Notes under the pieces: model-generated | What the model saw: the letters and a program-made list of their open reading frames with translations, nothing else | Database searches by the model: none | What the model was told of the DNA's origin: nothing | Shown: piece by piece, positions 34,232 through 50,849 of the stretch | How positions within the stretch are numbered: position 1 is the first letter of the stretch | Layout: every line of letters begins with the position of its first letter | Translations under genes and position numbers: made by a program | DNA from: a virus | Taxonomy: Duplodnaviria; Caudoviricetes | Virus record (IMG/VR): IMGVR_UViG_3300024423_000004 | Span: 1-51,760 of that record | DNA length: 51,760 nucleotides | Strand: one strand, 5' to 3'

Positions 34232-35314
34232 ATGGAAAAAGAAAAAAAAATTATTGATGTGATTGTAGGTTGTCAATTTGGGAGTGAAGCAAAAGGATTA
34301 GTTGCTTCTTATGTTGCTTCTATAGAAAAATATGATTGGCTAATTTCTGTAAATTCTGCACAAGCAGGTCATACAGCTCCTTATTGGAAAGAAGGGGAAA
34401 AAGAACCGGAGATGATAGTAACTAGACAATTGCCTAGTTCATGTATAACGGATTTTGAAGCAAAAATTTTTATTGGTCCAGGTGCTGTTATTAATCCTGA
34501 AGTTTTAGTAGAAGAAATTATTATGTTGGAAGAAAAGGGAATTCCTATTTGTGACAGGCTTTTCATTTCAGAGAATGCTACAATTGTTACAGAAGAAGAT
34601 ATAATAGCAGAATCTGTAAATAATTTAACTAATAGGTTAGGTAGTACAAATGAAGGTATTGGGTCAGCTCTTGCTATGAGGGCAATGAGAAAATCTCTTC
34701 AGATTAAAAATTCTTTTATTGATATTATAAAAAATTTGAAGTCTAAAGGATTAGAAAAATCTTTTACTTTAGTATCTGATTATTTTTCTGTTGATCATAT
34801 TTCAGGGAAGATTTTAATTGAAGGAAGTCAAGGTTATGGTCTTTCTATAATGAGTGGTTATTATCCATTTTGTACAAGTAGAGATACAACAACTGCAGCA
34901 TTTTTATCTTATGCACAATTATCACCTCTTGATGTAAGGGATGTTTATGGAGTCTATAGGACTTATCCCATTAGAGTAGGAGGCAATAGTGGACCAATGC
35001 ATGAAGAGATTGATTGGCCGATAATAGAAGGAAGATCAGGTTATAAAGATTTGGCTGAATTTACTACTGTAACAAAAAGAATGCGCAGAATAGGTGAATG
35101 GGATAACAATTTAGCCAAAAAGGCTACTATTGTAAATGGAGTGACAAAACCGATTCTTTGTTTTGCTAATTATTTAGACAAAAATGTAGAAAATGCATTA
35201 TGTTTGGATGAATTTCCCGAAGAAATATTACAAGAAATTGCAAAAAGAGCAGAATCAATTGGCCAGCCTTGGTTTGCTATTTCAACGAATAAACATGGAA
35301 ATTTTTTAACTTAA
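34232..35314 (+). CDS. purZ: PurZ/PurZ0-type succinylamino-deoxyadenylate synthetase (PurA paralogue)
   Basis: GCQFGSEAKG has Ser in place of the PurA catalytic Asp (GDEGKG); AGHT, GST..G.G, EGSQG, YPFCTSRD, RTYPIRVGGNSGP and TTVTKRMRR motifs. Confidence 0.85.
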   Translation: MEKEKKIIDVIVGCQFGSEAKGLVASYVASIEKYDWLISVNSAQAGHTAPYWKEGEKEPEMIVTRQLPSSCITDFEAKIFIGPGAVINPEVLVEEIIMLEEKGIPICDRLFISENATIVTEEDIIAESVNNLTNRLGSTNEGIGSALAMRAMRKSLQIKNSFIDIIKNLKSKGLEKSFTLVSDYFSVDHISGKILIEGSQGYGLSIMSGYYPFCTSRDTTTAAFLSYAQLSPLDVRDVYGVYRTYPIRVGGNSGPMHEEIDWPIIEGRSGYKDLAEFTTVTKRMRRIGEWDNNLAKKATIVNGVTKPILCFANYLDKNVENALCLDEFPEEILQEIAKRAESIGQPWFAISTNKHGNFLT

Positions 35315-35364
35315 TAAAATAATTTGAACAAAATATTAAATTTAAATAAAAAGAGGTACTAATT

Positions 35365-36372
35365 ATGTCGTGGATGCCACAAGATAATAAAGGAGACTCA
35401 AAATTGAAGTCTACTTGGGAATATAGGGATGGCATGGAATTTGTAACTATATTACCTAACACAACAAGAGATTTTATCCTTCTTCAAGGAGATAATGATC
35501 CAACAAAAACTTGGAATAGTCCAAAAATTGCTTGGGTACATGAATTTAAAAATCATAAAGGAAGTTTTTCAACTATAATTTGTAATAAATGGAAACAAGC
35601 ATGTCCATGTTGTTATGAAAATGAACGATATAAACAAAAAAATCCTAATTATAGAAATGCTGGTGGAAGATTGCCTTATGGTTTAAGCAAAAAGGCTTTA
35701 ATTCAAGTATATGATTTTCAAGAACAAAGAGTACTTTGGATTTTAGCAGGTAAACAAATTCAAGATGGAATAGAATTTGTCTTTACTAAAGATACTTTTG
35801 ATAATCGTATTTCTATAACTAGAATAGGTGAAAAACTTAATACGAATTATAGAGTAGATATAAATAAAGTTCCAATTACACAAGAAATTCAAGAAGCAAT
35901 CAATCAATCAATGGTATCTTGGGAAGATACAGATATAATGATATATCCTTCAGATCAAGAATTTTATGAAAAGAGTGGGATGAATCCTTATATTTTTTTT
36001 CAAAAGGCATCATATCAAGTAGATGGTATAGATATTAGTAGTTGGGGACCTATTCCTAGTAAAGATCAAGTGAATATAGAACAAACGCAAAGCAATGTTG
36101 TGCAAGAAAATAAAACAACAATTGTAAATTCCGATCATAATATATCAACAACTGTAAATTTACCAATAGATATTAGGGAGGCTTTAGATACTAAATGTCA
36201 ATCTGGTATTTATGTCAATCAATCTTTAGAGGAAATTATTATTCAAACTGGTAAAACTTATTTGATGTTTTTGTCTGCAAAGGGACAAGAAGCGGAATCT
36301 ATACAATCTAAATTATTAATTGATAATTGGGAATTAATTCAATCTTATATTGATAATAAAGCAAGTTTTTAA
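35365..36372 (+). CDS. Putative single-stranded DNA-binding protein (T4 gp32-like)
   Basis: WVHEF..C...CPCC zinc site and ISITRIG..LNT.Y motif; directly upstream of recA. Confidence 0.6.
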   Translation: MSWMPQDNKGDSKLKSTWEYRDGMEFVTILPNTTRDFILLQGDNDPTKTWNSPKIAWVHEFKNHKGSFSTIICNKWKQACPCCYENERYKQKNPNYRNAGGRLPYGLSKKALIQVYDFQEQRVLWILAGKQIQDGIEFVFTKDTFDNRISITRIGEKLNTNYRVDINKVPITQEIQEAINQSMVSWEDTDIMIYPSDQEFYEKSGMNPYIFFQKASYQVDGIDISSWGPIPSKDQVNIEQTQSNVVQENKTTIVNSDHNISTTVNLPIDIREALDTKCQSGIYVNQSLEEIIIQTGKTYLMFLSAKGQEAESIQSKLLIDNWELIQSYIDNKASF

Positions 36373-36380
36373 GAGGAAAT

Positions 36381-38420
36381 ATGTCGAAAGAAATAGATAA
36401 TCTAAAGAATCTTGCGAAGCAAATAAATAAAGATTTTGGAGGTGGATCACTCATGCATTTGGGTGATTCTCCTAAAATTCTTGAAAATGAGGCAAAGAGG
36501 CAATCTTTTGGTTATAAATTGCTTGATGATGCTTCTGCAGGTGGTCTTTGTTATGGTAAAATTCATGAAATATTTGGCAATGAGGGAGATGGTAAAACTA
36601 CTTTAGCTTTATCTATTTTAGCAGAATGTCAAAGAAATGGAATGCAGGGTTATTATGTAGATGCAGAACATAAATTAAATTTGGAATATGCTAAGACTTT
36701 AGGGGTTGATGTTAGTAAATTATTAATTACACAACCTTCTCATGGAGAACATGCTTTAGATGTTATGAAGGATGTTTTTAATTCAAATTTAGTGAATATA
36801 TGTGTTGTTGATTCAGTGTCTTCTTTAACTCCTCTATCTATGATAAATGGAGAATTTACTGATGCTAATATGGGTGCACATGCAAGACTTATGTCTACAA
36901 TGTGTAGGGTATTAGTACCTATTTTAAATCAGAAGAATATTATTTTAATATTGATTAACCAAATTCGTTATAAATTGGGTGTAATGTTTGGTTGTTTTCA
37001 TTATAATACTCTTGTTAATTTTGCTGATGGTAAAAATATTCCTATTGGAAAAGTTGTAGATGAAAAAATTCAAGGTGATGTTTATTGCTTAAATGAAAAA
37101 ACTAATGAAATTGAAATAAAATCTATAGTAGATTGGCATGATAATGGGAAAATAGAAAATAAAGAAGATTTTATTCATATTCAAACAAATTCAATAGATG
37201 GTGGAAGTAGATTTGGTTTTACATGCACTCCTAATCATAAAATTTTAACTAATAAAGGATGGAAACAAGCAAAAAATATTAATTATGAAGATAAGCTTAT
37301 TTCTAAATATTTAGAAACTATTAATGGTACTTATGGTGATTTTTTAAGGGGAATATTAATTGGAGATAGTCATATATCTATTCGTGATCAAAACACAGGC
37401 TGTTTAAGATTTCAGGAGAATAAACAAGTTGAATATCTTAATTGGAAATTAAAAAAATTAAATCCATTTTTAAAATTTAAAAAAATTGATATTAATAATA
37501 GAGGGTATAGATATATTTCTAAATATACTTTTGAATGGTCAAAAATAAAAAAAATAATTGGTAATCGCAATCCGGAATATATGTTACAAAAATATTCTGA
37601 TTTATCTTTAGCAATTTGGATTATGGATGATGGACATTTTGATCAAAAAGGTGGTCATAGAAGATATAATATTTCTATAAAAAGATTTAAGAATGATGAT
37701 TTAAATTTACAAAATGTTGTAGATTTATTTCAAAAAAATGGATTAGATTGTAATTATAGAATATCAGATGGAAATATTAATTTTTCTACTGAAATGACAG
37801 ATATAATTGCTAAAAGAATTTGTAAATTTGTTCCAATTTGTATGCAATATAAACTTCCTGTAGAATATCATGAGAAATATCAAGAATTTAATTTAAGAAA
37901 TAAACCTATAGAAATAACTGAATTTGTAGAAATTAAGGAGATTCGGGGGGCTTCGAATAAGCAAATAAAAAATAAGCGTAAATTTGATATTTCTGTTCAA
38001 GATAATGAAAATTATATGGTTGGTGGAAAATATAATGGAATTATTGTACATAATTCGCCAGAGACAACTACTGGAGGACAAGCTATAAAATTTCACTCGA
38101 TAATGAGGATGAAGTTAACATCTACCAAATATTCAGACTCAGATAAATTGAAGAGGATGGTAAATGTTAATTTTATAAAACAGCAATCTGGTGGATTACC
38201 CTATACAAAAACGGGTTTACTCCTCAATATAGGAGAAGGTTTTGATAAGGGGTATGATTTAATTGAACATGGTATAAAAAAAGGAATACTTAAATTAAAT
38301 GGTTCTCAAGTAAAGATGGGTGATATTAGTATTGGACAAGGAAAATTAAAAGCTAGTCAAAATCTTCTAGAAGATAAGAAGTTGTTCGATAAATATGAGA
38401 AGTTATTAAAAGGAGTATAA
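36381..38420 (+). CDS. recA: RecA recombinase containing an intein
   Basis: EIFGNEGDGKTTL, DAEH, VVDSV, ARLMS, INQIR.K.GVMFG|intein|SPETTTGG.A.KF. Confidence 0.95.
   Translation: MSKEIDNLKNLAKQINKDFGGGSLMHLGDSPKILENEAKRQSFGYKLLDDASAGGLCYGKIHEIFGNEGDGKTTLALSILAECQRNGMQGYYVDAEHKLNLEYAKTLGVDVSKLLITQPSHGEHALDVMKDVFNSNLVNICVVDSVSSLTPLSMINGEFTDANMGAHARLMSTMCRVLVPILNQKNIILILINQIRYKLGVMFGCFHYNTLVNFADGKNIPIGKVVDEKIQGDVYCLNEKTNEIEIKSIVDWHDNGKIENKEDFIHIQTNSIDGGSRFGFTCTPNHKILTNKGWKQAKNINYEDKLISKYLETINGTYGDFLRGILIGDSHISIRDQNTGCLRFQENKQVEYLNWKLKKLNPFLKFKKIDINNRGYRYISKYTFEWSKIKKIIGNRNPEYMLQKYSDLSLAIWIMDDGHFDQKGGHRRYNISIKRFKNDDLNLQNVVDLFQKNGLDCNYRISDGNINFSTEMTDIIAKRICKFVPICMQYKLPVEYHEKYQEFNLRNKPIEITEFVEIKEIRGASNKQIKNKRKFDISVQDNENYMVGGKYNGIIVHNSPETTTGGQAIKFHSIMRMKLTSTKYSDSDKLKRMVNVNFIKQQSGGLPYTKTGLLLNIGEGFDKGYDLIEHGIKKGILKLNGSQVKMGDISIGQGKLKASQNLLEDKKLFDKYEKLLKGV
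36993..38054 (+). mobile_element. Intein (354 aa) with LAGLIDADG homing endonuclease
   Basis: Begins CFHYNT, block B CTPNH, LRGILIGD and LAIWIMDDG motifs, ends IVHN followed by Ser. Confidence 0.95.
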
Positions 38421-38423
38421 AAA

Positions 38424-39326: not shown

Positions 39327-39855
39327 TAAAATTGTTGTTTCTTCTTTAACAAGAAAAGTATTTGATCAGATATCATGTCCGCAAAATGTTGATTGGGCTT
39401 GGTGGATAGAACAAAAATTGCAAAAAATGCAAATAAACGGTCTTGTAAAAATGATTCAACAATCAAAAAAAATGGATATGAAATATATTGAAGGATATTT
39501 ACCTAAATTCAAGTGGGCCTTTAGGAAAAATTCAATTAATATTTCTCATTGCGATTGGTTATTTTGTTTTATACAATCTTTAGATGTTGATTTTAATTGG
39601 AATATTTGGGAACAATTAGTACAGATAAAAACAGATGATATGAAAATTTTTCAAGAATCTATGAATATAGCATTTAGTAGAAATAATTCAAATTTGAATT
39701 ACATATTAGCAATTTTTTTTGATAAAAGATATGAATTTTATCAGAAGATAGAAGAATTAAGGAATAATATAACTTCTTTTGAAGAAGAAGAGAAAAAAGA
39801 AATTACAGATAAATCAATACAAAAATGGAATAATTTAAAGGATTTATTATGTTAA
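39319..39855 (+). CDS. Hypothetical protein
   Basis: Coupled ORF upstream of the primase-helicase. Confidence 0.6.
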   Translation: MNNKIVVSSLTRKVFDQISCPQNVDWAWWIEQKLQKMQINGLVKMIQQSKKMDMKYIEGYLPKFKWAFRKNSINISHCDWLFCFIQSLDVDFNWNIWEQLVQIKTDDMKIFQESMNIAFSRNNSNLNYILAIFFDKRYEFYQKIEELRNNITSFEEEEKKEITDKSIQKWNNLKDLLC

Positions 39856-42284
39856 GACTTTCAAAAGCTACAAGTTTTATTTTAAATGAAGTAAATATTG
39901 TAGAATTTCTAGAATCCTTTGAAGGATTAGAATTTAAAAAGATAGGGAATAACATGAGGGCAATATGTCCCCTGCATGGAGATACTGATCCTTCTTTTAC
40001 TGTTTCTTTAGATAAAAATGTATGGCATTGTTTTGGATGTAAGGGTGGGGGATCTTTAATTTCTTTTGTAGAACAATTTCATTCTTTAAATAGAATTAAA
40101 GCTATTCATTATATTTTTGATCAATTAGAACTTAATGTAAATGATTATGTTGAATATACAGAATCAGAAAATATTCAAAATATTTTGGAATCAGCAACGC
40201 AATATTTTATACAAAAATCAACAAATAAAAAATTTAAAGATTATTTTCAGAAAAAAGAATTTAAAGACTTTAAATATTTAGAACAAGAGAAAATTGGTTA
40301 TTGTGATTCTGAAGCAAATTTACATGCATACTTATTAAGTAAGAATTATTCAAAAGAAGAAATATGGAATAGTAATTTATATGGAACTAAATTTAATAGT
40401 TCAATTGTTTTTCCTATTCGAAATATATATGGAATAATAAGATACTTCCAATGCAGGCAATTAGATAATAAGGATGCAAAATATATTTCAGATAAGGAAG
40501 ATGCTTTATTAGTTGGTGCTCATTCTCTTAAAAAAGATGATTATGTTATTCTTGTAGAAGGATATGCAGATTATTTGGCTTTGAATCATAAAAATTATAA
40601 TGTTTTATGCATGAGGGGTCTAAAGGTAACTCAAGATTTAATAGACTTAATAAAATCTCATGAAATCAATAATGTTTATGTTTGGGTAGATGGAGATATT
40701 GCTGGATTTGATTATATCAAAACTTTGACGTATAATTATGTTGAATTATTTTCTAGTAATCATATGAATGGTTATACAATTTTTGTTGAAAATAGTGATC
40801 CAGATATTTTAGTTAATACTAATATTAATGTAGAATTTTTATTGGAAGGTAGTTTGTTGCTTCCTCTGCATTTTTTAGAAAATAAATATAAAGGGATAAA
40901 TGAAGATGATAAGTATAAATTTATAGATTTTGCTAGGGATTTATGTAAGGGTTATGATTATTTTACTATTAGTCAAATTATCAAATATTTATCAAACTTA
41001 ACGGAAATTGATAAAATTATTATTGAAGATAGGTTTTTATCCCTTAGTAAATCTAAATTTGCAAATTTTGAACTTGAAAAAGATATAATTGCTTCTATAT
41101 TATATGATAATAATTTAATATATCAATATAAAATTGATGAAGAATGGTTTGCATTCAAATCTTCAAGATATTTATTTAAATTAATTCAACTAGAAAAAGT
41201 TAATATTGTTAACATAAAAACTATTGCAGATCAGTGGTGTCATGGATTTATTGATTCATTACCTTCTTATAATTCGAATTTATTAGAGGAAAAATTTAAT
41301 CTATTAAAAGAAATTAGAGATAAAAGGTATTTACATGATATAGGTAAAAAAGTCATGCTCATGAGTGATTCACACGATGAATGTTTATCATATATTAATG
41401 AGTCTTTAATTAATATCTATCAGAATAAAAATGAAAATGTAGAAGATTTCTATGATTCGATGAAATCAGTAATTAATAAATTAGTTGATGGTCACAAGTA
41501 CATAGGCTATGATATAAGTAATAGATTTCCGATAATGAATCAAACATTATTTGGAATAGTTCCAGGTAAATTGATTCTTTTAATGGGTTGTACAGGACAT
41601 GGGAAGACTAATGTAGCTTTGAATTTGGCATCTACTCTTTCATATGATCAATCTTATAAAGGATTGTATTTTTGTGGAGAAATGCAAATAGATGAATTGA
41701 CAAAAAGATTTATTTCAATAAATTCTGGTGTATCGAATACTAAATTAAATACTAATAATTTAGATGATGATGACATGACTAAAATTTTTGATGTTGCTTC
41801 TTCATTTAATAGTGATAAATTAAAATTTCATTCAACTATGAAATTTGATAAAATCATAAATCTTATAAAATATTCTAAAATAAAATATGATATTAATTAT
41901 GTTATTATTGATTATATGCAATTATTAGAACCTTCAAGGTCTATGCCTAGAATGGAAAAAACTTATCAATTAAAAGAAATGACTAGAATTTTAAAAACTA
42001 ATATCTGTCAAGAGTTAGATTTACCAGTTATAGTATTAGGTCAACTGAATGATGATGCTCTAAATGAAAGTATACCCTCTGCTAGAAATTCATCACAGTC
42101 TAAATTAATTCAAACTGATGCAGATATTACAATTGCATTGAGAATGAAGAATAAAAAAGAAAAGGATTTAGAACCAAATGGAGATATTATTTTTCATATT
42201 GATAAGGTCCGATATAATAGAGGGAAGAGGGTTTTACTTTTAGATTTTGATGATAATTCGCTTGTCATGAAAGAATCAATATAA
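39849..42284 (+). CDS. DnaG-type primase / DnaB-type helicase fusion
   Basis: CPLH..DPSF..HCFGC zinc finger, VEGYAD and DGD.AG TOPRIM motifs, GCTGHGKT Walker A, IIDYMQL and QLN. Confidence 0.92.
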   Translation: MLRLSKATSFILNEVNIVEFLESFEGLEFKKIGNNMRAICPLHGDTDPSFTVSLDKNVWHCFGCKGGGSLISFVEQFHSLNRIKAIHYIFDQLELNVNDYVEYTESENIQNILESATQYFIQKSTNKKFKDYFQKKEFKDFKYLEQEKIGYCDSEANLHAYLLSKNYSKEEIWNSNLYGTKFNSSIVFPIRNIYGIIRYFQCRQLDNKDAKYISDKEDALLVGAHSLKKDDYVILVEGYADYLALNHKNYNVLCMRGLKVTQDLIDLIKSHEINNVYVWVDGDIAGFDYIKTLTYNYVELFSSNHMNGYTIFVENSDPDILVNTNINVEFLLEGSLLLPLHFLENKYKGINEDDKYKFIDFARDLCKGYDYFTISQIIKYLSNLTEIDKIIIEDRFLSLSKSKFANFELEKDIIASILYDNNLIYQYKIDEEWFAFKSSRYLFKLIQLEKVNIVNIKTIADQWCHGFIDSLPSYNSNLLEEKFNLLKEIRDKRYLHDIGKKVMLMSDSHDECLSYINESLINIYQNKNENVEDFYDSMKSVINKLVDGHKYIGYDISNRFPIMNQTLFGIVPGKLILLMGCTGHGKTNVALNLASTLSYDQSYKGLYFCGEMQIDELTKRFISINSGVSNTKLNTNNLDDDDMTKIFDVASSFNSDKLKFHSTMKFDKIINLIKYSKIKYDINYVIIDYMQLLEPSRSMPRMEKTYQLKEMTRILKTNICQELDLPVIVLGQLNDDALNESIPSARNSSQSKLIQTDADITIALRMKNKKEKDLEPNGDIIFHIDKVRYNRGKRVLLLDFDDNSLVMKESI

Positions 42285-42293
42285 AGAGGAAAA

Positions 42294-42779: not shown

Positions 42780-42780
42780 C

Positions 42781-43227
42781 ATGTTGAAATACAGATTAAA
42801 TGTACATATAAGAAGTAATAAATTAATAGTAAATAATTATATTTCTTTTATAGAAGAATATTATAAAAAACATAAACGGACTTCAGAAATTCATGTTGAT
42901 TCTTTAATATTAATATATAATCTTACTAAAAATGAAAAAATTTTTAATTGGATTTTAAAAGTTCATAGGGGTCTTTTAATAAAAATTACAAGATTTACAT
43001 ATAATAAATATAAAACTTTCTTATATAAAGAAGATTATAATGAAATGCTTTCCATGGTTATGGGTGAATTTTATAGAAGGATATTATTTTATGAAATTCC
43101 TCCTCGTGCACCTTTTTCTAAATATGTTAAATTATATATACGTAGATGGTTAAATTCATATACAAAATTGATAGTAAAGAAAAATAATCGATTTGTCCTT
43201 GAATGTGATAAAGAGGAAATGCAATGA
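42781..43227 (+). CDS. Second sigma-region-2-like protein, without region 4
   Basis: NEKIFNWILK....L, ED..E.......F......YE.....PFSKYV..YIR..L pattern. Confidence 0.5.
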   Translation: MLKYRLNVHIRSNKLIVNNYISFIEEYYKKHKRTSEIHVDSLILIYNLTKNEKIFNWILKVHRGLLIKITRFTYNKYKTFLYKEDYNEMLSMVMGEFYRRILFYEIPPRAPFSKYVKLYIRRWLNSYTKLIVKKNNRFVLECDKEEMQ

Positions 43228-46214
43228 TAAATTTACATACAAAATCTGCAGGCGGTAATTTTGATTCTATATTAACTAATTCTGATCTCATATCAGAAGA
43301 TAAAATAATTACTGTTGTAGATTCAACTATGTTTAATGTTGTTTCTTTATACAAAAATTGTAAAGCAGCAAGTAAGAAGTTGGTATTTGGGTTAGATATT
43401 TGTACGGCTTTTGGTAATGTAGAATCATTAATTTCTATGTATGGGAAATTTTATGGTAAATTGACTTTAATTGCTAAAAATTATCAAGGATATCAGAATT
43501 TAGTAAAATTATCTACATATTCTTATTTGAAGGGTTTTTATCAAAAGCCTAGAATAGATTTAGAATTTTTATTAGAAAATAATGAAGGTTTAATTTGTTT
43601 GATTGATTCATTAAATTCTAATCTTGCCATGCATATTGAAAATGATAGTAAATTTGAAATGATGAAAGAATATAAAACTTTAAAGGGTATTTTTAAAGAA
43701 AAGTTACATTGGGTTTATTTTCTGAATGCAGAACCTACTGAAAAAGTAAAAACTTTTATACAAAATAATAATGAAAAAGTAATTGCTTCTAATATAGTAA
43801 AATATCAAAATCCAAATAATTTTGATTATTGGAAATATTTGATGTGTATTAACAACAATATTAATACAGGGGAATTTGATAATAATAATAAATCTTCTTA
43901 TTGTAAAAAAGAATTTAATGATTTTTATTATTGTATATGGTTATCAGAACATGCCATTATGAACTTATTTGATCTACTAGAAGAAGTAGAAGATTATAAT
44001 TTAGATCAAAAAGAATTGAAATTGCCAGATATGGGTATTCCAGATGAGGACTTTATAGAAAATTTATTTCGTAAATTAGAAGAATTTGGTTTAAATACAG
44101 AAAAATATATAGAAAGATTGAGTTATGAATTAGATACTATAATGAAATTTGGATATAAGGATTATTTTCTTTTAGTAAAAGATGTAGTTGATTATGCAAA
44201 TAGAGAATTATCTGGTTATCTTTCTGCAGGTCGAGGTAGTGTAGGTGGATGTTTAATAGCTTATCTTTTAGGAATTACAAGAATAAATCCAGTCAATCCT
44301 AAAGGTTTTGATATGGAAATACCTTTTGATAGATTTTTAAATTCTGGTAGAAAAGTAATGCCGGATATAGATTTGGATTTTTTACCTAGAGATCGTCCTT
44401 TAGTTATTCAATATTTGAAGGATAAATTTGGAAATGATTCTTGTAAAAATATGATGACTAAAGTTACATTTGGTGCACGGTCTTCTATAAGGGAAATTTG
44501 TAGAATATCTGGTAATTTAACATCAGAAATAGAAAGTATAATAAAGTCTTTTCCTTCAGACCAACATCTTAATTTAGATATATTAAAAGATACGGATATT
44601 TATAAGCAAAATGAAGATAATAAAATATTTATGGATATGTATAAAATAGCTGAAAAATTAGAGGGAATGCCACGTTCAATTGGTGTACATGCTTCAGGGA
44701 TCGCATTATCTGCATGTGATATGAAAGATAATGTACCTTTTTTCATTCATAATGGAAGAGAAGTCACCCAATATGATCAAAATTCATTAGATTATATGGG
44801 AGTTATAAAATTAGATATATTAGGTTTAAATGTTTTGCAGATAATGAGTGATTGCTTAGAATTAATTGAGCCTAACATGGACAAATTTGAATGGTTATCT
44901 GAAATATCATTAAATGATGATGGAGTTTTTAAATTTATCAATGATGGATTGATATCTGGAGTTTTTCAATGGGACACTTTTAACTATAAAAAAGTTATTG
45001 AAAATGTAAAACCAAATAGTTTTAAAGAATTAGTTGATCTAAATACATTAGGCAGAAGTGCTGCCTTATTATCAGGTTTAACGGACAAATATATAGCTAG
45101 AAAGAATGGATTAGAGAAAATTGAACCATTACATCCTAATTTGGATAATCTGATGAGTCAGACTTATGAATTACCTTTATATCAAGAACAGATTATGAAG
45201 ATTTTTATTGAATTGGCTGGTTTTAGTTTTTCTGAAGCAGATGATGTAAGGAAAGCAATAGGTAAAAAAATTCCAGAACTTATGAATCAGCAAATGAAAA
45301 AATTTAATGAAGGTTGTATTAAGAATAATATAACAACAAAAGAATCGGCAAAGATATGGTATATTATTGATAAATTTTCTAAATATACTTGGAATTTAGG
45401 TCATGCAATAGCTTATACAAGGATTTGTTATGAAACTGCGTATTTAGCATATCATTATCCAAAGGAATTTTATTGTGCCTGTATTAATAATTCAGGAGAT
45501 AAGAATGAAATTGGTAATTTTATATCTACTCTAAAAAAGAGAAAAATAAAAATAGATAGTTGTCATATAAATGTATCTCAAAAACGATATATTATAAAAG
45601 ATCAAATTGTTTATTCTGGTTTTACTGGATTAAAATTTTTTGGAGAAAAATCAATAGATAATTTTTTGAATATGAGGAGTACTGGATATGATTCTATAGA
45701 AGAATTATTTGAAAAAGTACCCAAAAAAACATTAAATGCAAGGGCAATAAAAGCATTATATTGTGGTGGTGCTTTTGATTCTTTGATAAAAATTGAAGAA
45801 GATTTAGAATTATTAGCAAAAAGGGCAAATCTAACTATAAGGGAATTAAGGTTATTGAATTTAAATCAATATAATATATGTGGTAGAATTACTGTAAATC
45901 CAGTACAAAAAATTGGAATTTTATTTTCTGACCATAAAACAAAATATAATAATTTAATTGATTTAAAAGATAATTTGACTGTTTTTACCATGGCATATAT
46001 AGTTGGATTAAGGGAGATATATACTAAAAATGGAAATAAAATGGCTTTTGGAACTTTAGAAGATCACACTGGTCGATATGAAATTGTTATATTTCCTTCA
46101 GTTTGGAAAAATACAAAAATTAAAATTGGGGATTTATGTGAAACTAAATTAAGATATGATAAAGGAATTATATGTGATTATATAAGGAAATTTGATATAG
46201 AAGAGGTAGAATGA
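43224..46214 (+). CDS. dnaE: DNA polymerase III alpha subunit (family C)
   Basis: AKN..GY.NL, GRGS, FDRFLN, PDIDLDF, HASG, KLDILGL, GVFQ, YQEQIM and C-terminal OB fold (TKNG.KMAF..LED). Confidence 0.95.
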   Translation: MINLHTKSAGGNFDSILTNSDLISEDKIITVVDSTMFNVVSLYKNCKAASKKLVFGLDICTAFGNVESLISMYGKFYGKLTLIAKNYQGYQNLVKLSTYSYLKGFYQKPRIDLEFLLENNEGLICLIDSLNSNLAMHIENDSKFEMMKEYKTLKGIFKEKLHWVYFLNAEPTEKVKTFIQNNNEKVIASNIVKYQNPNNFDYWKYLMCINNNINTGEFDNNNKSSYCKKEFNDFYYCIWLSEHAIMNLFDLLEEVEDYNLDQKELKLPDMGIPDEDFIENLFRKLEEFGLNTEKYIERLSYELDTIMKFGYKDYFLLVKDVVDYANRELSGYLSAGRGSVGGCLIAYLLGITRINPVNPKGFDMEIPFDRFLNSGRKVMPDIDLDFLPRDRPLVIQYLKDKFGNDSCKNMMTKVTFGARSSIREICRISGNLTSEIESIIKSFPSDQHLNLDILKDTDIYKQNEDNKIFMDMYKIAEKLEGMPRSIGVHASGIALSACDMKDNVPFFIHNGREVTQYDQNSLDYMGVIKLDILGLNVLQIMSDCLELIEPNMDKFEWLSEISLNDDGVFKFINDGLISGVFQWDTFNYKKVIENVKPNSFKELVDLNTLGRSAALLSGLTDKYIARKNGLEKIEPLHPNLDNLMSQTYELPLYQEQIMKIFIELAGFSFSEADDVRKAIGKKIPELMNQQMKKFNEGCIKNNITTKESAKIWYIIDKFSKYTWNLGHAIAYTRICYETAYLAYHYPKEFYCACINNSGDKNEIGNFISTLKKRKIKIDSCHINVSQKRYIIKDQIVYSGFTGLKFFGEKSIDNFLNMRSTGYDSIEELFEKVPKKTLNARAIKALYCGGAFDSLIKIEEDLELLAKRANLTIRELRLLNLNQYNICGRITVNPVQKIGILFSDHKTKYNNLIDLKDNLTVFTMAYIVGLREIYTKNGNKMAFGTLEDHTGRYEIVIFPSVWKNTKIKIGDLCETKLRYDKGIICDYIRKFDIEEVE

Positions 46215-46215
46215 T

Positions 46216-47121
46216 ATGTTAGAGCGATTTGTCTGTCCTGATATGAAAGAAATTAATATGAAAGATTGTTTAGAGAAATGCAGATTAAATAAGAGATGTT
46301 TAACAAAACCTACATTAATGGTATTGGCTAGAGTTAGACCTTGGAAAGGTATTCCATCAGTAACGCAATTATTGAATGGAACATATGAATCTTTTTTAAA
46401 GATAAAAGTAGCTTATGCAGAATCACCAGATCAGATGGCTTTTAGATTATATGGTACAGTTACACATGCCAATTTAGAAGAAGTAGAAGTAGATGAATCA
46501 TTGATGATAGAAATTTCTAATGTGGGATCAGATGGAATTTCTGGTACTTCTGATTTGGTAGAAAAGGAAGATAATTGGCATATTTTAACTGATTATAAAA
46601 CATCAGGTTCATTTAAAGTTGCTAAAGCATTAGGGGCATATGAAACATGGGGGGAGTCTAAAGATGAAGTTTATAAACAAAAAACTTATGTAACTTTTGA
46701 TGGAATGAAAGTGGCTAGAGAGAAAGGAAGTCCCAAAATAAAGAAGAAAATTAAATTTGATATAAAAAATCAAGATTGTAAAGATTGGATTTATCAATTA
46801 AATAAATATCGAATTGATCTTGAAGAAAATGGAACAAAGATTGACGAAATAAGAATACAGGCTATTGTTAGAGATGGTGGGACTATGATAGCTAGAAATC
46901 GTGGTTTAGATAGAAATATATATTTGATTCCTATACCTCATATAAAAGATGAAGAAATAAAAAGTTATTTTAAAAAGAAAAAAGAAAATCTTCTTAAAGC
47001 TTTAGAAATGGGGGATTGGAATGAAGAATGTTCTGAAGAAGAGACTTGGAATGGACTTAAATGTGAAAGGTATTGTTCAGTAAGTAAATTCTGTAAATTT
47101 AAGGAAAATATAAATGGATAA
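46216..47121 (+). CDS. PD-(D/E)XK exonuclease (Cas4/AddB-like)
   Basis: PSVTQL, GT.TH, SGTSD, DYKTS, QL..Y and C-terminal C..C..YC...FC motifs. Confidence 0.82.
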   Translation: MLERFVCPDMKEINMKDCLEKCRLNKRCLTKPTLMVLARVRPWKGIPSVTQLLNGTYESFLKIKVAYAESPDQMAFRLYGTVTHANLEEVEVDESLMIEISNVGSDGISGTSDLVEKEDNWHILTDYKTSGSFKVAKALGAYETWGESKDEVYKQKTYVTFDGMKVAREKGSPKIKKKIKFDIKNQDCKDWIYQLNKYRIDLEENGTKIDEIRIQAIVRDGGTMIARNRGLDRNIYLIPIPHIKDEEIKSYFKKKKENLLKALEMGDWNEECSEEETWNGLKCERYCSVSKFCKFKENING

Positions 47122-47623: not shown

Positions 47624-47746
47624 AAATAAGATATATAAATGCAAGTGATGATATTTTGGAGGGTAGAAGAAAAAAAGTAAGAGAACTTTTGAAAAAATAG
47701 ATTTTGCAGAAGTTCTAATGGATGTTTTTGATGGTGTGAGGGTTAA

Positions 47747-48661: not shown

Positions 48662-49087
48662 GTGTTAGATAAAATAGTATATGTAGCAGGTGCCTTGAGG
48701 GGTAATTTTATAAGAAAATGGTTAAATTTTAAAAAGATACATAAAATTTGTAAAAAATTGTGGTCTAACAATATTATCAATTATTCTCCTCATAAAAATT
48801 CAGGGTGGTTTGATAATAAGAAAACAGATGAATTTATGTTAGCATCTAATATTGAATTATTAAAGCGGTGTGATATTTTATTTGTAGTGGATAATTGGAA
48901 AAAAAGTAGTGGCACTATGGGAGAACTCATTGAGGCTATTCGATCTGGTAAAAAAATATATTTTGATATTGATGATTTAATAGAAGACCTTAAATATAGG
49001 AGATTTGATAGATCATTAACAATTATAGAACAAGAAGAATTGTTAATAAAAATAAGGAAAATAAAAAATCATAGAAACATATATTAA
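48662..49087 (+). CDS. DUF4406/DUF1937-like protein (nucleoside deoxyribosyltransferase-like fold)
   Basis: VYVAG, SPH, LL.RCD and W..SSG..GE..EA motifs. Confidence 0.75.
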   Translation: MLDKIVYVAGALRGNFIRKWLNFKKIHKICKKLWSNNIINYSPHKNSGWFDNKKTDEFMLASNIELLKRCDILFVVDNWKKSSGTMGELIEAIRSGKKIYFDIDDLIEDLKYRRFDRSLTIIEQEELLIKIRKIKNHRNIY

Positions 49088-49091
49088 TAAT

Positions 49092-49733
49092 ATGGATAGG
49101 AGTATAGTAATGATTGTTTTTGATTGTGAGACAGTAAGACCTATTTTAAAGAAGAATGAAAAACCAAAAGATCAATATGAATATGCTGAAAGTTGGACAG
49201 ATTATAAGGGCATGGGAATATCTGTTGTGTGTTTTTATAATTATCAAACTGGATGCATATTTGATCTTTTAGAGGATCATATTAAAGAAAAATCTGATGA
49301 ATTTTTATATGCTCAAAATTTAATAAAAGAAAATGAACTTATTGCAGGTTTTAATATAAAAAAATTTGATAATAATTTGATAAGAGAATTTGGAATAAAC
49401 ATTCCAGATATAAAAACTTATGATATATTAGAATTATTTTGGTTAGCAATTGGTTTGGACCCTAAAAATTTTAATCCGAGAACACATGGTGGATATAATT
49501 TAGAAAAATTTTTAAAGATTAATTTTCCTGATGGAGATATTCAAAAGACAATGAATGGAGTAAATGCCCCTTATATGTGGCAAGATGGTAAAAAAGATGA
49601 AGTAGTAGAATATTGTAGAAATGATGTAAAAGTAGAAAAGGCTTTATTTAATAAAATTTTTGAAACTGGTGGTTTGATAAATCCTAAGACTAAAAAATTT
49701 GTAAAAATGCCACTTCCTAGGGCATTTAATTAG
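49092..49733 (+). CDS. DEDD / RNase H-like 3'-5' exonuclease
   Basis: VFDCET, GFN..KFD and EYC.NDV exonuclease I-III motifs. Confidence 0.85.
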   Translation: MDRSIVMIVFDCETVRPILKKNEKPKDQYEYAESWTDYKGMGISVVCFYNYQTGCIFDLLEDHIKEKSDEFLYAQNLIKENELIAGFNIKKFDNNLIREFGINIPDIKTYDILELFWLAIGLDPKNFNPRTHGGYNLEKFLKINFPDGDIQKTMNGVNAPYMWQDGKKDEVVEYCRNDVKVEKALFNKIFETGGLINPKTKKFVKMPLPRAFN

Positions 49734-49741
49734 AGGGAAAT

Positions 49742-50266
49742 ATGAATAAAAAAGAAGAAATATATGAAAAGATAGGTAATTTGCGGAAAGATTTTGAATT
49801 AGAAATTGATAAGATTCTTATTGCTATAGATGAGAATGAAGTAATACAGAAGAAAAAAAAAGAAAGGTGGAAGCCTAAAGAAGATGAAATTTATTGGTTT
49901 GTTGATGCAGATGGTGATATAACAGATGTACCATGGTACAATAGGCATTATCATGAATGGTGCTACAATCAAAGAAATTGTTTTAAAACAAGACAAGAGG
50001 TAGGGGAATATAAAAGATATTTAGAGATAGAAGCACAGATAAGGTATATTGCAGATGATTTGAATGAGGGGAGAAAAGTAAAGTGGGGAGAAAATCAGTG
50101 GCATTATAAAATATGGTATGATCATGAAGATGGAGAAATTAGTGATGTTAAAACTAAAGATGTGCAGACTCCAGAGATTTATTGTTTGAATGAAAAATTT
50201 AGAAATATATGTGTAGAGAGAATAGGCAAAGAAGACCTTAAATTTTATTTAACTTATGAGAGATAA
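49742..50266 (+). CDS. Hypothetical phage protein
   Basis: RWKP...E.YW...NCFKT..E pattern. Confidence 0.65.
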   Translation: MNKKEEIYEKIGNLRKDFELEIDKILIAIDENEVIQKKKKERWKPKEDEIYWFVDADGDITDVPWYNRHYHEWCYNQRNCFKTRQEVGEYKRYLEIEAQIRYIADDLNEGRKVKWGENQWHYKIWYDHEDGEISDVKTKDVQTPEIYCLNEKFRNICVERIGKEDLKFYLTYER

Positions 50267-50268
50267 TA

Positions 50269-50487
50269 ATGAAAATCGATAAAATGATAAAAGAATATGA
50301 AAAATATAAGGAAGATATACCAGAAAAAAAAGTAAAAAAGGATTTAAGTAGTGATATATTTGCCGAAATAGATATAGAAGAGAAATCTTTGTTTATTAGA
50401 AATAAACATGGCAGTTATACAATTATTAGCCTAGAAGAAAGTAAAAAGTTATATGAGTTTTTAAAAGAATATTTCGGAGAAGAATAA
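50269..50487 (+). CDS. Hypothetical protein
   Basis: Coupled ORF. Confidence 0.6.
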   Translation: MKIDKMIKEYEKYKEDIPEKKVKKDLSSDIFAEIDIEEKSLFIRNKHGSYTIISLEESKKLYEFLKEYFGEE

Positions 50488-50849
50488 TGGAAAAAGAAGG
50501 GATAAAACACGATAAAGGGAAAACACGTTGGTCATTACTCCCTTTTGAAATTATAGAAGAAATAGTTAAAGTTATGGAGTTTGGTGCTGATACTTATGGA
50601 ATTGATAATTGGAAACAATTAAAAAATTTTAATGACAGATTTTTTTCAGCTTGTATTAGGCATCTTGTAAAATGGAAGCAAGGTAATAAAATAGATGATG
50701 AAACTAATTTAAGTCATCTTGCACATGCAGCAACGTGTATTATTTTTTTACTCTGGAAACAAAGTCAAGTTTCTGAAGAAAAAATATTGGATACATTTCA
50801 AACAATACCAAAAGAGATGATATTTCAAGAAGATGATGGAGAATATTAA
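50487..50849 (+). CDS. DUF5664-type dATP/dGTP diphosphohydrolase
   Basis: G.KHDKGK.RW.LLP, V.EFGA..YG..NW, A..RHL and D.ET.L.HLAHA motifs. Confidence 0.82.
   Translation: MEKEGIKHDKGKTRWSLLPFEIIEEIVKVMEFGADTYGIDNWKQLKNFNDRFFSACIRHLVKWKQGNKIDDETNLSHLAHAATCIIFLLWKQSQVSEEKILDTFQTIPKEMIFQEDDGEY

What the first reader, a model, noticed from the sequence alone, without database searches (positions are those of the whole stretch)
34232..50849. Candidate Z-base (2-aminoadenine) genome system built on a family C polymerase, without DpoZ or DatZ
Seen: the first large gene of the replication arm is a PurA paralogue with the Asp-to-Ser P-loop change (GSEAKG). The same arm encodes a DUF5664-type dATP/dGTP diphosphohydrolase (50487-50849), a deoxyribosyltransferase-fold protein (48662-49087) and dUTPase. 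The only polymerase is DnaE-like (43224-46214). I see no family A polymerase and no HD-domain dATPase. Known: the Asp-to-Ser change marks PurZ/PurZ0, which convert dGMP toward dZTP; the Z-phages I know use DpoZ (family A) and/or DatZ plus MazZ. Inference: this may be a Z pathway where A is excluded by a Pol III alpha, or by the diphosphohydrolase alone, which could both supply dGMP and remove dATP. The genome is strongly AT-rich by eye, so full substitution would turn most base pairs into three-H-bond pairs.
Basis: partly seen in the sequence, partly recalled or inferred. Interest (0 to 1): 0.88.

Follow-up and report, generated by a model that had tools for sequence, protein, structure and literature searches.

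The report
PurZ phage that replicates with DnaE
This complete AT-rich phage genome carries the genes known to replace adenine with 2-aminoadenine (Z) in phage DNA, but pairs them with a Pol III alpha (DnaE) replicase instead of the Pol I-type enzyme of nearly all described Z-phages, and a group of uncultured relatives does the same.

Summary
The window is a whole 51.8 kb tailed-phage record. Its replication arm encodes:
- a PurA paralogue with the Asp-to-Ser P-loop (GSEAKG);
- a dUTPase;
- an NDT-fold protein;
- a DUF5664 diphosphohydrolase;
- DnaE as the only recognisable DNA polymerase.

Six-frame HMM searches find no PolA, PolB, Prim-Pol, HD/DatZ, DUF550/MazZ or PurB.

Lacking DatZ is not unusual. 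A 2026 paper shows that PurZ0-type Z-phages control their nucleotide pools with DutZ, DmtZ (NDT-like) and DUF5664. The window's dUTPase groups with DutZ. Its NDT-like protein is only a distant relative of DmtZ.

Two things appear unreported.
- The PurZ belongs to a third lineage, separate from both classical PurZ and PurZ0.
- In this lineage, all 11 contigs that cover the region, the window included, carry a syntenic PurZ, Dut and DnaE module and no PolA.

Among 49 IMG/VR PurZ records, 5 have DnaE, 34 have PolA and none has both. The lineage's DnaE has lost the PHP metal-ligand motifs, and a DnaQ-like exonuclease is conserved alongside it.

Whether the DNA really contains Z, and whether DnaE discriminates Z from A, is untested. 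I call this a new variant of a known kind.

The parts
34232..35314 (+). PurZ-family succino-aminodeoxyadenylate synthase candidate (360 aa). P-loop reads GSEAKG. It belongs to a third lineage, outside both classical PurZ and PurZ0.
   Evidence: PF00709. phrog_1211 E 2.7e-70. The best NCBIfam model is NF038379 PurZ at 246 bits, under its 300-bit cut-off. Best PDB match is 7VF6, a PurZ0, at 129 bits. Trees. Motifs.
35365..36372 (+). Conserved 335-aa protein directly after PurZ. Possibly a gp32-like ssDNA-binding protein; this is a lead only.
   Evidence: No Pfam or PHROG hit. Conserved at 28-48% identity in G001, G002, G003 and G010. The Atlas search gives a weak lead to PF08804 gp32.
36381..38420 (+). 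RecA/UvsX-like recombinase interrupted by an intein that carries a LAGLIDADG endonuclease.
   Evidence: PF00154, Intein_splicing and LAGLIDADG_2. phrog_97.
39849..42284 (+). Fused DnaG-type primase and DnaB-type helicase.
   Evidence: Zn_ribbon_DnaG, DNAG_N, Toprim and DnaB_C.
42294..42779 (+). DutZ-like trimeric dUTPase-fold enzyme. Predicted to hydrolyse dATP, dGTP and dUTP to the monophosphates.
   Evidence: PF00692. 38-43% identical to the Dut proteins of the PurZ0 phages Wayne (its Dut domain is assayed in PMC12884076), Archimedes and Hiyaa. The top 40 of 324 phage-database hits are all from PurZ0 phages. Tree.
42760..43227 (+). Conserved 155-aa protein of unknown function between Dut and DnaE.
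   Evidence: 44-59% identical in 5 of 5 close relatives and in L091, L093, L096, L098, L099 and L171. No family hit above a curated cut-off.
43224..46214 (+). DnaE (Pol III alpha), the only recognisable DNA polymerase. The metal-ligand motifs of its PHP domain are lost.
   Evidence: Pfam domain set. TIGR00594 570.7 bits against a cut-off of 434. Tree. PHP alignment.
46216..47121 (+). Exonuclease-like protein (phrog_2139).
   Evidence: phrog_2139 E 1.9e-13. 48-50% identical in G002, G003, G010 and G049.
48662..49087 (+). Protein of the nucleoside 2-deoxyribosyltransferase superfamily (DUF4406 type). Predicted dNMP N-glycosidase or transferase, a possible functional counterpart of DmtZ.
   Evidence: Pfam and PHROG hits. 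AF2 model with pLDDT 86.2. Foldseek top hits are NDTs, DNPH1 and MilB. Invariant Y7, D71 and E88. hhalign against DmtZ gives 82% probability. Present in 4 of 4 relatives that cover the region.
49092..49733 (+). DnaQ-like (RNase H fold) 3'-5' exonuclease, a candidate trans-acting proofreader for DnaE.
   Evidence: PF13482 at 21.6 bits, just under its 22-bit cut-off. phrog_403 'DNA polymerase exonuclease subunit'. 31-52% identical in G002, G003, G010 and G049.
50487..50849 (+). DUF5664-type dATP/dGTP diphosphohydrolase. This is an accessory gene, not conserved across the lineage.
   Evidence: PF18909 100.7 bits. phrog_801. 32% identical to the C-terminal part of Wayne gp50. Found only in G003 among 5 relatives.

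Best explanation
The window is a complete tailed phage of about 52 kb. Its left arm holds terminase, portal, capsid, tape-measure, baseplate and tail-fibre genes. Its replication arm most likely makes and uses dZTP, so that 2-aminoadenine replaces adenine in the DNA.

Proposed mechanism (every step below is inferred from homology; none was assayed):
1. The DutZ-like dUTPase, helped in this phage by the DUF5664 hydrolase, converts dATP and dGTP to dAMP and dGMP. This removes the competitor and supplies the substrate.
2. The PurZ-family enzyme condenses dGMP with aspartate. Its F-x-N-Y motif predicts ATP as the phosphate donor.
3. Host PurB and host kinases finish dZTP. No phage PurB is present.
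4. The NDT-superfamily protein destroys or recycles dAMP, so it cannot be re-phosphorylated.
5. The phage's own replisome copies the genome with Z opposite T. That replisome is DnaE with a dead PHP domain, a DnaQ-like exonuclease, a DnaG-DnaB fusion, RecA and a possible gp32-like SSB.

Pool control alone could enforce the substitution, as it does for the non-selective PrimPol of S-2L. DnaE need not be selective.

The PurZ, Dut and DnaE core is inherited as a syntenic block in a lineage of uncultured phages. The NDT-like and DnaQ-like genes are seen in the four relatives where that part could be read.
For: - PurZ identity. The P-loop Ser is present and is found in 47 of 48 lineage members. The best-scoring PHROG and NCBIfam models are the PurZ ones. 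In the IQ-TREE analysis, 59 sequences that include every characterised PurZ and PurZ0 reference, and whose checked P-loops read Ser, separate from E. coli PurA at 100*.
- ATP-type motif. F311 and N313 align with the F306 and Q308/N297 residues that contact adenine in S-2L and phiVC8 PurZ (passages of PMC8342488).
- Dut. The 40 best of 324 phage-database hits are all Duts of PurZ0 actinophages, at 90-112 bits. Canonical phage Duts score 76 bits or less. In the tree, 20 Duts from PurZ phages group together (88/87), and the window's group is sister to the group that holds the assayed Wayne DutZ (87/87).
- The Dut and DatZ strategies exclude each other. Of 49 IMG/VR PurZ records, 18 have Dut, 16 have HD_3 and none has both. 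All 5 DnaE records have Dut.
- NDT fold and catalytic residues.
- Biochemistry of the homologous module is published: DutZ and DUF5664 hydrolyse dATP and dGTP, and DmtZ degrades dAMP (PMC12884076, sections 20-23).
- Conservation. The window-lineage contigs that cover the region are G002, G003, G010 and G049 (whole records), L091 (=G001), L093, L096, L098, L099 and L171. All 10 carry PurZ, Dut and DnaE. None shows PolA.
Against: - There are no chemical data on the DNA and no enzyme assay.
- The PurZ NCBIfam score (246 bits) is below the curated 300-bit cut-off.
- The lineage is as far from characterised PurZ and PurZ0 (about 30-37% identity) as from archaeal PurA (120.6 bits against 129 for PurZ0).
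- Ser-type PurA-like genes also sit in large cellular chromosomes with no Z-module genes within 10 kb. The Ser alone therefore may not prove dGMP use.
- Support for the DutZ grouping is moderate and not starred.
- The NDT-like protein is not a DmtZ orthologue. BLAST finds no hit, and hhalign aligns only 68 columns.
- DUF5664 is absent from 4 of 5 close relatives.
- No family C polymerase has been shown to use dZTP.
Confidence: 0.6

Rival explanations
1. The DNA is ordinary ATGC. The PurA paralogue is an auxiliary purine-metabolism gene, for example boosting adenylate supply for an AT-rich genome or acting on another substrate. The dUTPase is a normal dUTPase. The NDT-like and DUF5664 proteins are general nucleotide-pool sanitisers.
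For: - No assay exists.
- The NCBIfam PurZ score is under its cut-off.
- Archaeal PurA scores almost as well as PurZ0 in the PDB search.
- Ser-type PurA-like genes occur in cellular chromosomes without neighbouring Dut or polymerase genes. One sampled locus, L191, has cellular-looking neighbours.
- DnaE phages with normal DNA are common: 1350 phage records.
Against: - The catalytic Asp that PMC12884076 reports as 99% conserved in PurA (section 24) is replaced by Ser in 47 of 48 lineage members.
- The Dut is closest to DutZ, not to canonical phage Duts.
- The gene set reproduces the published PurZ0-type module.
- Dut and DatZ-type genes exclude each other among PurZ records, which fits both serving one pathway.
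Confidence: 0.17
2. Z is made but substitution is only partial, or Z is an intermediate toward a different purine modification. This would be because a non-selective DnaE competes with residual dATP and no DatZ-type triphosphohydrolase is present.
For: - Pool control here rests on diphosphohydrolases only.
- DUF5664 is not conserved.
- In E. coli transplants, polymerase choice changes Z incorporation levels (bioRxiv 10.1101/2025.10.22.683976, passages).
Against: - PurZ0 phages also lack DatZ. PMC12884076 treats them as Z-genome phages and describes complete substitution for Z-phages in general (abstract).
- The conserved NDT-like gene offers a second sink for dAMP.
- No further modification enzyme was recognised among the window's ORFs.
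Confidence: 0.13
3. DnaE, working with the DnaQ-like exonuclease, is itself Z-selective. It would be a family C counterpart of DpoZ, and the main barrier against adenine.
For: - The lineage's DnaE forms a clade at 100* on a long stem of 1.17.
- 14 of 15 PurZ-linked DnaEs group at 96*, apart from 4 phage DnaEs taken from outside the PurZ data set and from E. coli DnaE.
- The PHP domain is degenerate and a separate exonuclease is conserved with it.
- DpoZ selectivity is proposed to come from proofreading and backtracking (PMC8599892, passages).
Against: - Only 5 non-PurZ reference DnaEs were used, in a quick tree search.
- G034's DnaE falls elsewhere.
- S-2L shows that a non-selective polymerase is enough when dATP is removed (PMC8342488).
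- No residue-level rationale exists.
Confidence: 0.1

Closest known systems
PurZ0-type Z-genome module of actinophages (Arthrobacter phage Wayne, Gordonia phages Ghobes and Archimedes): PurZ0 + DutZ + DmtZ (+ DUF5664-1) + DpoZ-1
   Same: - A Ser-type PurA paralogue with the GSE[AG]KG P-loop.
- A Dut-fold enzyme of the same lineage.
- An NDT-superfamily protein.
- A DUF5664 hydrolase.
- No DatZ and no DUF550/MazZ.
   Different: - The polymerase is DnaE (family C), not PolA.
- The PurZ is outside the PurZ0 core clade. It has F-x-N-Y where PurZ0 has T-M-x-D.
- The NDT-like protein is of the DUF4406 type and only remotely related to DmtZ.
- G+C is about 30%, against high-GC hosts for the actinophages.
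- The primase-helicase is a DnaG-DnaB fusion rather than a primase-polymerase.
Classical PurZ Z-cluster (cyanophage S-2L, vibriophage phiVC8, Acinetobacter phage SH-Ab 15497): PurZ + DatZ + MazZ, with DpoZ-2 or, in S-2L, PrimPol
   Same: - The same predicted chemistry, dGMP to dSMP.
- The same ATP-type F-x-N/Q-Y motif.
- S-2L sets the precedent for a Z-genome without a PolA.
   Different: - No DatZ or MazZ.
- The P-loop is GSEAKG, not GSTGKG.
- A separate clade in the trees.
- A different polymerase family.
DnaE-encoding phages with canonical DNA (for example the Bacillus phage 268TH004 group and Streptomyces phage Dwayne)
   Same: A phage-encoded Pol III alpha with the same domain order.
   Different: - At most 29% identity.
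- Four sampled non-PurZ phage DnaEs fall outside the window clade, and the two that were aligned (Dwayne, Moorella) keep the PHP ligand motifs that the window lineage has lost.
- I did not check these phages for PurZ.

Membership tests
PurZ family in the broad sense (2-aminoadenylosuccinate synthetase) | Adenylosuccinate synthetase fold | tested here: met
   PF00709 at 154 bits against a cut-off of 27. 27 PDB matches to PurA or PurZ chains.
PurZ family in the broad sense | Catalytic Asp13 (E. coli numbering) replaced by Ser in the P-loop | tested here: met
   GSEAKG in the translation. Ser in 47 of 48 lineage members. PMC12884076 reports Ser in 100% of 147 phage PurZ sequences (section 24).
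PurZ family in the broad sense | Falls with PurZ and PurZ0, and away from PurA, in a phylogeny | tested here: met
   The 59 rows that hold all PurZ and PurZ0 references separate from E. coli PurA plus a D-type viral PurA at 100*.
PurZ family in the broad sense | Score above NCBI's curated cut-off for NF038379 (PurZ) | tested here: not met
   It is the best-scoring model, but at 246.2 bits against a 300-bit cut-off.
PurZ family in the broad sense | Uses dGMP rather than IMP | not testable with these tools
   Needs an enzyme assay.
PurZ0 subgroup | Member of the PurZ0 clade, which keeps the Asp aligned with E. coli PurA's T-K-L-D | tested here: not met
   The window clade (22 rows, 98*) is separate from the PurZ0 core (9 rows, 99*). 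All 48 lineage members have Asn at that position.
PurZ subgroup in the strict sense (S-2L and phiVC8 type) | Member of the PurZ clade with the GSTGKG P-loop | tested here: not met
   The window is outside the 17-row PurZ group (99*), and its P-loop is GSEAKG. It does share the F-x-N-Y motif of the ATP pocket.
DutZ | Trimeric dUTPase fold | tested here: met
   PF00692 at 97.6 bits against a cut-off of 22.
DutZ | Belongs to the monophyletic Dut lineage of PurZ phages | tested here: met
   The top 40 phage-database hits are all PurZ0-phage Duts. The tree groups 20 PurZ-phage Duts at 88/87 and places the window group as sister to the Wayne DutZ group at 87/87. Support is moderate and not starred.
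DutZ | Hydrolyses dATP and dGTP | not testable with these tools
   Needs an assay. I identified no diagnostic specificity residue.
DmtZ | NDT-superfamily fold with a catalytic Tyr, Asn or Asp, and Glu | tested here: met
   Model with pLDDT 86.2. Top structural matches are NDTs, DNPH1 and MilB. Y7, D71 and E88 are invariant in 5 of 5 family members. The Glu aligns with the DmtZ Glu.
DmtZ | Sequence membership of the DmtZ clade, with its own residues (Asp12, Pro57 and Trp124 of Ghobes DmtZ) | tested here: not met
   No BLAST hit to the Archimedes, Wayne or Hiyaa DmtZ. hhalign gives 82% probability over only 68 C-terminal columns. The N-terminal motif is Y-V-A-G-x-x-R-G, against Y-x-A-x-P-I-D in DmtZ.
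DUF5664 dATP/dGTP diphosphohydrolase | Match to PF18909 above the cut-off | tested here: met
   100.7 bits against a cut-off of 27. I did not place it in DUF5664-1 or DUF5664-2.
DatZ | An HD, HD_3 or YfbR-like domain protein in the genome | tested here: not met
   0 six-frame matches.
DpoZ | A family A polymerase in the genome | tested here: not met
   0 six-frame matches to PF00476.
DnaE (Pol III alpha) | PHP, NTPase (palm), finger, HHH and OB domains in that order | tested here: met
   TIGR00594 scores above its cut-off. The PHP metal-ligand motifs are lost.

The most novel reading that the evidence does not exclude
This lineage's DnaE, acting with its co-conserved DnaQ-like exonuclease, has evolved its own preference for Z:T over A:T. 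That would be a further independent origin of a Z-dedicated replicase, and the first in family C. It would show that whole-genome A-to-Z substitution works with the bacterial-type replicative polymerase.
Probability: 0.2. Interest if true: 0.85.

Novelty: new variant of a known kind. Interest (0 to 1): 0.68.

Why it matters
Published accounts say that every aminoadenine phage except S-2L has a PolA-type DpoZ (passages of PMC8342488 and PMC8775771).

A recurrent PurZ-DnaE lineage would add a third polymerase family to Z-genome replication. It would add a third PurZ lineage to the PurZ and PurZ0 picture. It would also extend the DutZ-type pool-control strategy from high-GC actinophages to AT-rich uncultured phages.

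The finding gives concrete proteins for a direct test: can a Pol III alpha-type replicase copy ZTGC DNA, and does it discriminate Z from A? In a genome of about 30% G+C, full substitution would turn roughly 70% of base pairs into three-hydrogen-bond pairs.

Tried and rejected
- The single-sequence scan of viral contigs with the PurZ found no relative. It worked only with alignment A1.
- A PDB profile search with the NDT-like alignment gave only weak hits: E 0.43-0.99 to NDTs, plus a spurious DNase gamma hit. The fold search was used instead.
- I looked for PurB in the window and found none.
- I hoped to find raw nanopore reads in which A-specific miscalls might betray Z. The look-up of sequencing runs listed 5 runs, all kept only as contigs. 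All are labelled hydrothermal vent metagenome, and 3 are flagged as possible sources of this DNA. No read-level test was possible, and read laying was not used.
- Host assignment failed. The window has no tRNA. The only named relative contig is binned in a Fibrobacter MAG (L171), which may be a binning artefact.
- I considered filing the enzyme as PurZ0 because of the shared GSEAKG P-loop and the best PDB hit. I rejected this on the trees and on the motif aligned with PurA's T-K-L-D.
I rejected it as the core because 4 of 5 close relatives lack it.
- The supplements of PMC12884076 (its Table S3 and Figures S8 and S9) could not be opened. They may list polymerases of PurZ phages that I could not see.
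- Zhou 2021, Pezo 2021, Sleiman 2021 (all Science) and Tong 2023 (Nature Microbiology) were not read. What I say of them is recalled.

Full report
WHAT IS THERE

The window is an entire IMG/VR virus record of 51,760 bases, rated 100% complete by CheckV. Its G+C is 0.24-0.37.

The left arm encodes virion and lysis genes:
- terminase large subunit (912-2480);
- portal (2482-4029);
- an amidase endolysin (6476-7045);
- major capsid protein (9070-10491);
- head-tail adaptor;
- tape-measure protein;
- baseplate wedge (25231-26988);
- tail fibre (27666-29711).

After a short minus-strand block, the replication arm runs from 34232 to the end on the + strand.
- PurA paralogue at 34232-35314, reading GCQFGSEAKG;
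- dUTPase at 42294-42779;
- DnaE at 43224-46214, with PHP, NTPase, finger, HHH and OB domains;
- NDT-like protein at 48662-49087;
- DUF5664 (PF18909) at 50487-50849.

The arm also holds:
- a RecA split by a LAGLIDADG intein;
- a DnaG-DnaB primase-helicase;
- a phrog_2139 exonuclease;
- two HNH endonucleases and a RusA-like resolvase;
- a DnaQ-like exonuclease at 49092-49733.

THE ABSENCES ARE REAL

Six-frame profile searches of the whole record gave no match at E <= 1 for any of these families, each run beside positive control genomes:
- PolA;
- PolB;
- Prim-Pol;
- HD;
- YfbR-like;
- HD_3;
- DUF550/MazZ;
- the PurB-type lyase.

DnaE is therefore the only recognisable DNA polymerase. There is no DatZ or classical MazZ.

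WHAT THE LITERATURE ALREADY EXPLAINS

I read the abstract and sections 19, 20 and 22-25 of PMC12884076 (Nucleic Acids Res. 2026), plus passages found by term search that included section 21. It shows that PurZ0-type Z-phages do not use DatZ and MazZ.
- Their Dut-like enzyme, DutZ, hydrolyses dATP and dGTP to the monophosphates.
- The DUF5664 protein of phage Wayne does the same.
- An NDT-like enzyme, DmtZ, hydrolyses dAMP to adenine and can transfer deoxyribose 5-phosphate to the Z base.
- All 98 PurZ0 genomes in that study have dutZ, and 85 have dmtZ.

The window's four nucleotide genes reproduce that strategy.

A preprint (10.1101/2025.10.22.683976, passages only) independently links NDT and dUTPase domains to dZ contigs.

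THE PURZ ENZYME

The best profile hits are the PurZ models.
- phrog_1211 scores E 2.7e-70.
- NF038379 scores 246 bits, ahead of archaeal-type PurA at 202 bits, but under NCBI's 300-bit cut-off.

Among solved structures, the scores run as follows:

| Structure | Bits |
|---|---|
| PurZ0 of Gordonia phage Archimedes (7VF6) | 129 |
| Pyrococcus PurA | 120.6 |
| phiVC8 PurZ | 118 |
| S-2L PurZ | 110 |

In the isolated-phage collection, 217 records match, all below 38% identity.

A search of the large protein collection found 3032 relatives at E <= 1e-10. About 45 of them are 41-59% identical, many on contigs of about 50 kb.

I built two trees.
- A FastTree of 168 sequences.
- An IQ-TREE (quick search, LG+C20 PMSF) of 61 sequences.

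Both place the window in its own well-supported clade (48 rows at 98*, and 22 rows at 98*). It is separate from the classical PurZ group (S-2L, Vibrio J2, DMU1, PMBT28, Bm1; 99*). It is also separate from the PurZ0 core (Wayne, Archimedes, Goodman, Hiyaa; 99-100*). All of these split from E. coli PurA at 100*. The order of the deep branches is unresolved.

Motifs show a mixed character.
- The P-loop is the GSE[AG]KG of PurZ0.
- E. coli PurA has T-K-L-D and PurZ0 has T-M-x-D. At the same place the window lineage has F-x-N-Y, with Asn in 48 of 48 members, like the N-F-x-N/Q-Y of PurZ.
- The S-2L paper (passages) identifies F306 and Q308 (N297 in phiVC8) as the residues that hold the adenine of ATP or dATP.

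I therefore predict ATP as the donor.

The sentence in PMC12884076 that assigns ATP to PurZ0 and GTP to PurZ seems to have the order swapped. This is judged against and against my recollection of Tong et al. 2023, which I did not read here.

THE POOL-CONTROL GENES

dUTPase.
- It is 38-43% identical to the Dut domain of Wayne (the assayed DutZ) and to the Dut proteins of Archimedes gp55 and Hiyaa.
- Against 50,697 phage records, 324 match at E <= 1e-10.
- The best 40 are all Duts of PurZ0 actinophages, at 36-45% identity and 90-112 bits. This holds despite the large difference in base composition.
- Canonical Duts of Staphylococcus, Campylobacter, Enterococcus and Vibrio phages reach at most 35% identity and 76 bits.
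- A careful IQ-TREE of 26 Duts puts all 20 Duts from PurZ-encoding phages in one group (88/87). The window's six-member group (100/99*) is sister to the group with Wayne DutZ (87/87). The six canonical Duts lie outside. Support for the deeper nodes is moderate.

NDT-like protein.
- It folds confidently (pLDDT 86.2).
- It matches nucleoside deoxyribosyltransferases, DNPH1 and MilB. These are the same structural neighbours reported for DmtZ.
- Y7, D71 and E88 are invariant in 5 of 5 family members, as is a Ser-x-Gly just before the Glu.
- From recalled knowledge of the NDT and DNPH1 families, a Ser where NDTs have an Asp suggests a 5'-phosphorylated substrate.
- It is not a DmtZ orthologue. BLAST finds nothing, and profile-profile comparison gives 82% probability over 68 columns.

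DUF5664. The protein is 32% identical to the C-terminal part of Wayne gp50.

THE PAIRING WITH DnaE RECURS

Scanning IMG/VR with alignment A1 gave 53 PurZ loci. Counts among those 49:

| Family | Records |
|---|---|
| DnaE NTPase domain | 5 (G002, G003, G010, G034, G049) |
| PolA | 34 |
| Both DnaE and PolA | 0 |
| Neither | 10 |
| dUTPase | 18 |
| HD_3 (DatZ type) | 16 |
| Both dUTPase and HD_3 | 0 |

Of the 10 with neither polymerase, 9 are fragments, and G008 is rated complete. All 5 DnaE records have Dut and none has HD_3.

I fetched six whole records and compared all 73 window ORFs with them by tblastn. G001, G002, G003, G010 and G049 share a syntenic replication arm:

PurZ, 335-aa ORF, RecA, primase-helicase, Dut, 155-aa ORF, DnaE, exonuclease, HNH, RusA, NDT-like, DnaQ-like exonuclease.

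- Dut is present in 5 of 5.
- NDT-like and DnaQ-like genes are present in 4 of 4 that reach that far.
- DUF5664 is present only in G003.
- G001 ends inside DnaE.
- G003 shares this arm but none of the structural arm, so the module moves between phage backbones.

The metagenome scan kept 80 of 556 loci.
- 11 belong to the window lineage.
- The 5 that extend 10 kb downstream (L091, L093, L096, L098, L099) all carry Dut, the 155-aa ORF and DnaE.
- The 6 short ones cannot tell.
- L091 is the same phage as G001 (99.7% PurZ identity).

One contig binned in a Fibrobacter MAG (L171) has the full module.

In total the window plus 10 contigs of the lineage carry PurZ, Dut and DnaE. Their G+C ranges from 0.32 to 0.48.

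DnaE also accompanies more distant PurZ genes in G034, L103, L162 and L170. G034's Dut is again DutZ-like.

THE DnaE ITSELF

It is at most 29% identical to any of the 1350 DnaE-bearing records in the phage collection.

A quick IQ-TREE of 20 DnaEs gives these results.
- The lineage's 11 DnaEs form a clade at 100* on a long stem (1.17).
- L162 and L170, and then L103, branch next (97*, 96*).
- So 14 of 15 PurZ-linked DnaEs group apart from four phage DnaEs taken from outside the PurZ data set and from E. coli DnaE.
- G034 falls with a Bacillus phage on a long branch.

With so few references this is suggestive only.

An alignment of the first 330 residues shows that the window lineage has lost the PHP metal-ligand motifs. 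I name these motifs from recalled knowledge of PHP domains: H-x-H, D-H-G, the H of H-L, the Cys and D-x-H. They are kept in L103, L162, L170 and in the Streptomyces, Moorella and faecal phage enzymes. E. coli DnaE, which relies on a separate epsilon subunit, has also lost part of them.

This fits the conserved DnaQ-like exonuclease acting as a trans proofreader.

IS THE PAIRING IN PRINT?

In the searched library, no paper holds both terms in any of these pairs:
- 'PurZ' (whole word) with 'polymerase III';
- 'aminoadenine' with 'DnaE';
- 'PurZ' with 'DnaE' gave one paper, and it was a surname hit.

The two 2025-2026 studies never mention DnaE or Pol III in their main text.

Subscription papers and all supplements were outside reach. 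The claim 'unreported' is limited to those searches.

MECHANISM AND CAVEATS

The best reading is a DutZ-type Z pathway feeding a DnaE replisome.
1. Dut, plus DUF5664 in this phage, turns dATP and dGTP into monophosphates.
2. PurZ converts dGMP.
3. Host PurB and kinases complete dZTP.
4. The NDT-like enzyme removes dAMP.
5. DnaE incorporates Z because dATP is scarce.

Every step is inferred by homology.

Weaknesses:
- There is no chemistry on the DNA.
- The PurZ lineage is distant from the characterised enzymes.
- Ser-type PurA-like genes also lie in large bacterial and archaeal chromosomes with no Z-module genes within 10 kb. This was seen in 45 genome loci. One sampled locus, L191, has cellular-looking neighbours. 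Another, L172, looks viral.
- The Dut grouping has only moderate support.
- The NDT-like protein is not DmtZ.

I put about 0.6 on a Z-substituted genome. The remainder is split between ordinary DNA, partial or other modification, and a selective DnaE.

VERDICT

This is a new variant of a known kind: a third PurZ lineage tied to a family C replicase. Interest is 0.68.

Noticed in passing
window:36381-38420: The RecA/UvsX-like recombinase is interrupted by an intein that carries a LAGLIDADG homing endonuclease (PF00154, Intein_splicing and LAGLIDADG_2). tblastn to relatives aligned only about 200 residues of it. I did not check whether relatives lack the intein.
   Followed up: partly
window:30015-30671 (-): An astacin-family (M12A) metallopeptidase sits in the minus-strand block between the structural and replication arms (117 bits against a cut-off of 22.5). 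This seems an unusual gene for a phage. tblastn found no homologue in the six related records.
   Followed up: no
window:50849-51610: A class 3 lipase (PF01764, E 1.2e-21; phrog_21992 esterase/lipase) lies at the right end of the genome. It was not found in relatives.
   Followed up: no
window:30922-31599 (-): A 225-aa protein of unknown function is conserved in all five close relatives. There it lies directly upstream of PurZ on the same strand. In the window it is 2.6 kb away on the opposite strand, which points to a local inversion. It has no family hit.
   Followed up: partly
window:42760-43227 and window:35365-36372: Two conserved proteins with no family assignment sit inside the module. 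A 155-aa ORF is always found between Dut and DnaE. A 335-aa ORF is always found right after PurZ, with a weak Atlas lead to gp32-type SSB.
   Followed up: partly
L171-L204 (genome contigs), e.g. L191:9980-11023: PurA-like genes with GSEGKG, GSEAKG or, in two loci, GGEGKG P-loops occur in many bacterial and archaeal assemblies, including chromosomes of 2-5.7 Mb. Most show no Dut, PolA or DnaE within 10 kb. In L191 the upstream neighbour is an RNase_H_2 plus AAA_18 fusion. Some metagenomic homologues are fused to AAA kinase-like domains (P0079, P0107, P0111). Their function is unknown. They are a caveat for reading Ser as proof of PurZ activity.
   Followed up: partly
L172 (contig binned in a Nitrosotalea MAG): A PurZ-like gene 44% identical to the window's lies beside a class II ribonucleotide reductase with an intein, a 5'-3' exonuclease and an SbcCD-like fusion. 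The region looks like part of a large virus rather than archaeal chromosome. No DnaE or Dut was seen within 10 kb.
   Followed up: partly
G008 (record of L008), G032, G037, G042: G008, a PurZ record rated 100% complete, has Dut but neither PolA nor DnaE. Several complete PolA-type PurZ records have neither Dut nor HD_3. Further replicase and pool-control combinations may exist.
   Followed up: no
G003 (L057-L060) versus the window: G003 shares the whole replication arm with the window (PurZ 51% and DnaE 48% identity, and it has DUF5664). It shares essentially none of the structural arm. The Z and DnaE module is exchanged between different virion backbones.
   Followed up: partly
window:34232-44231: Public runs that hold this stretch are all labelled hydrothermal vent metagenome. 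There are 5 runs in 4 studies, and 3 are flagged as possible sources of this DNA. This is context only.
   Followed up: no
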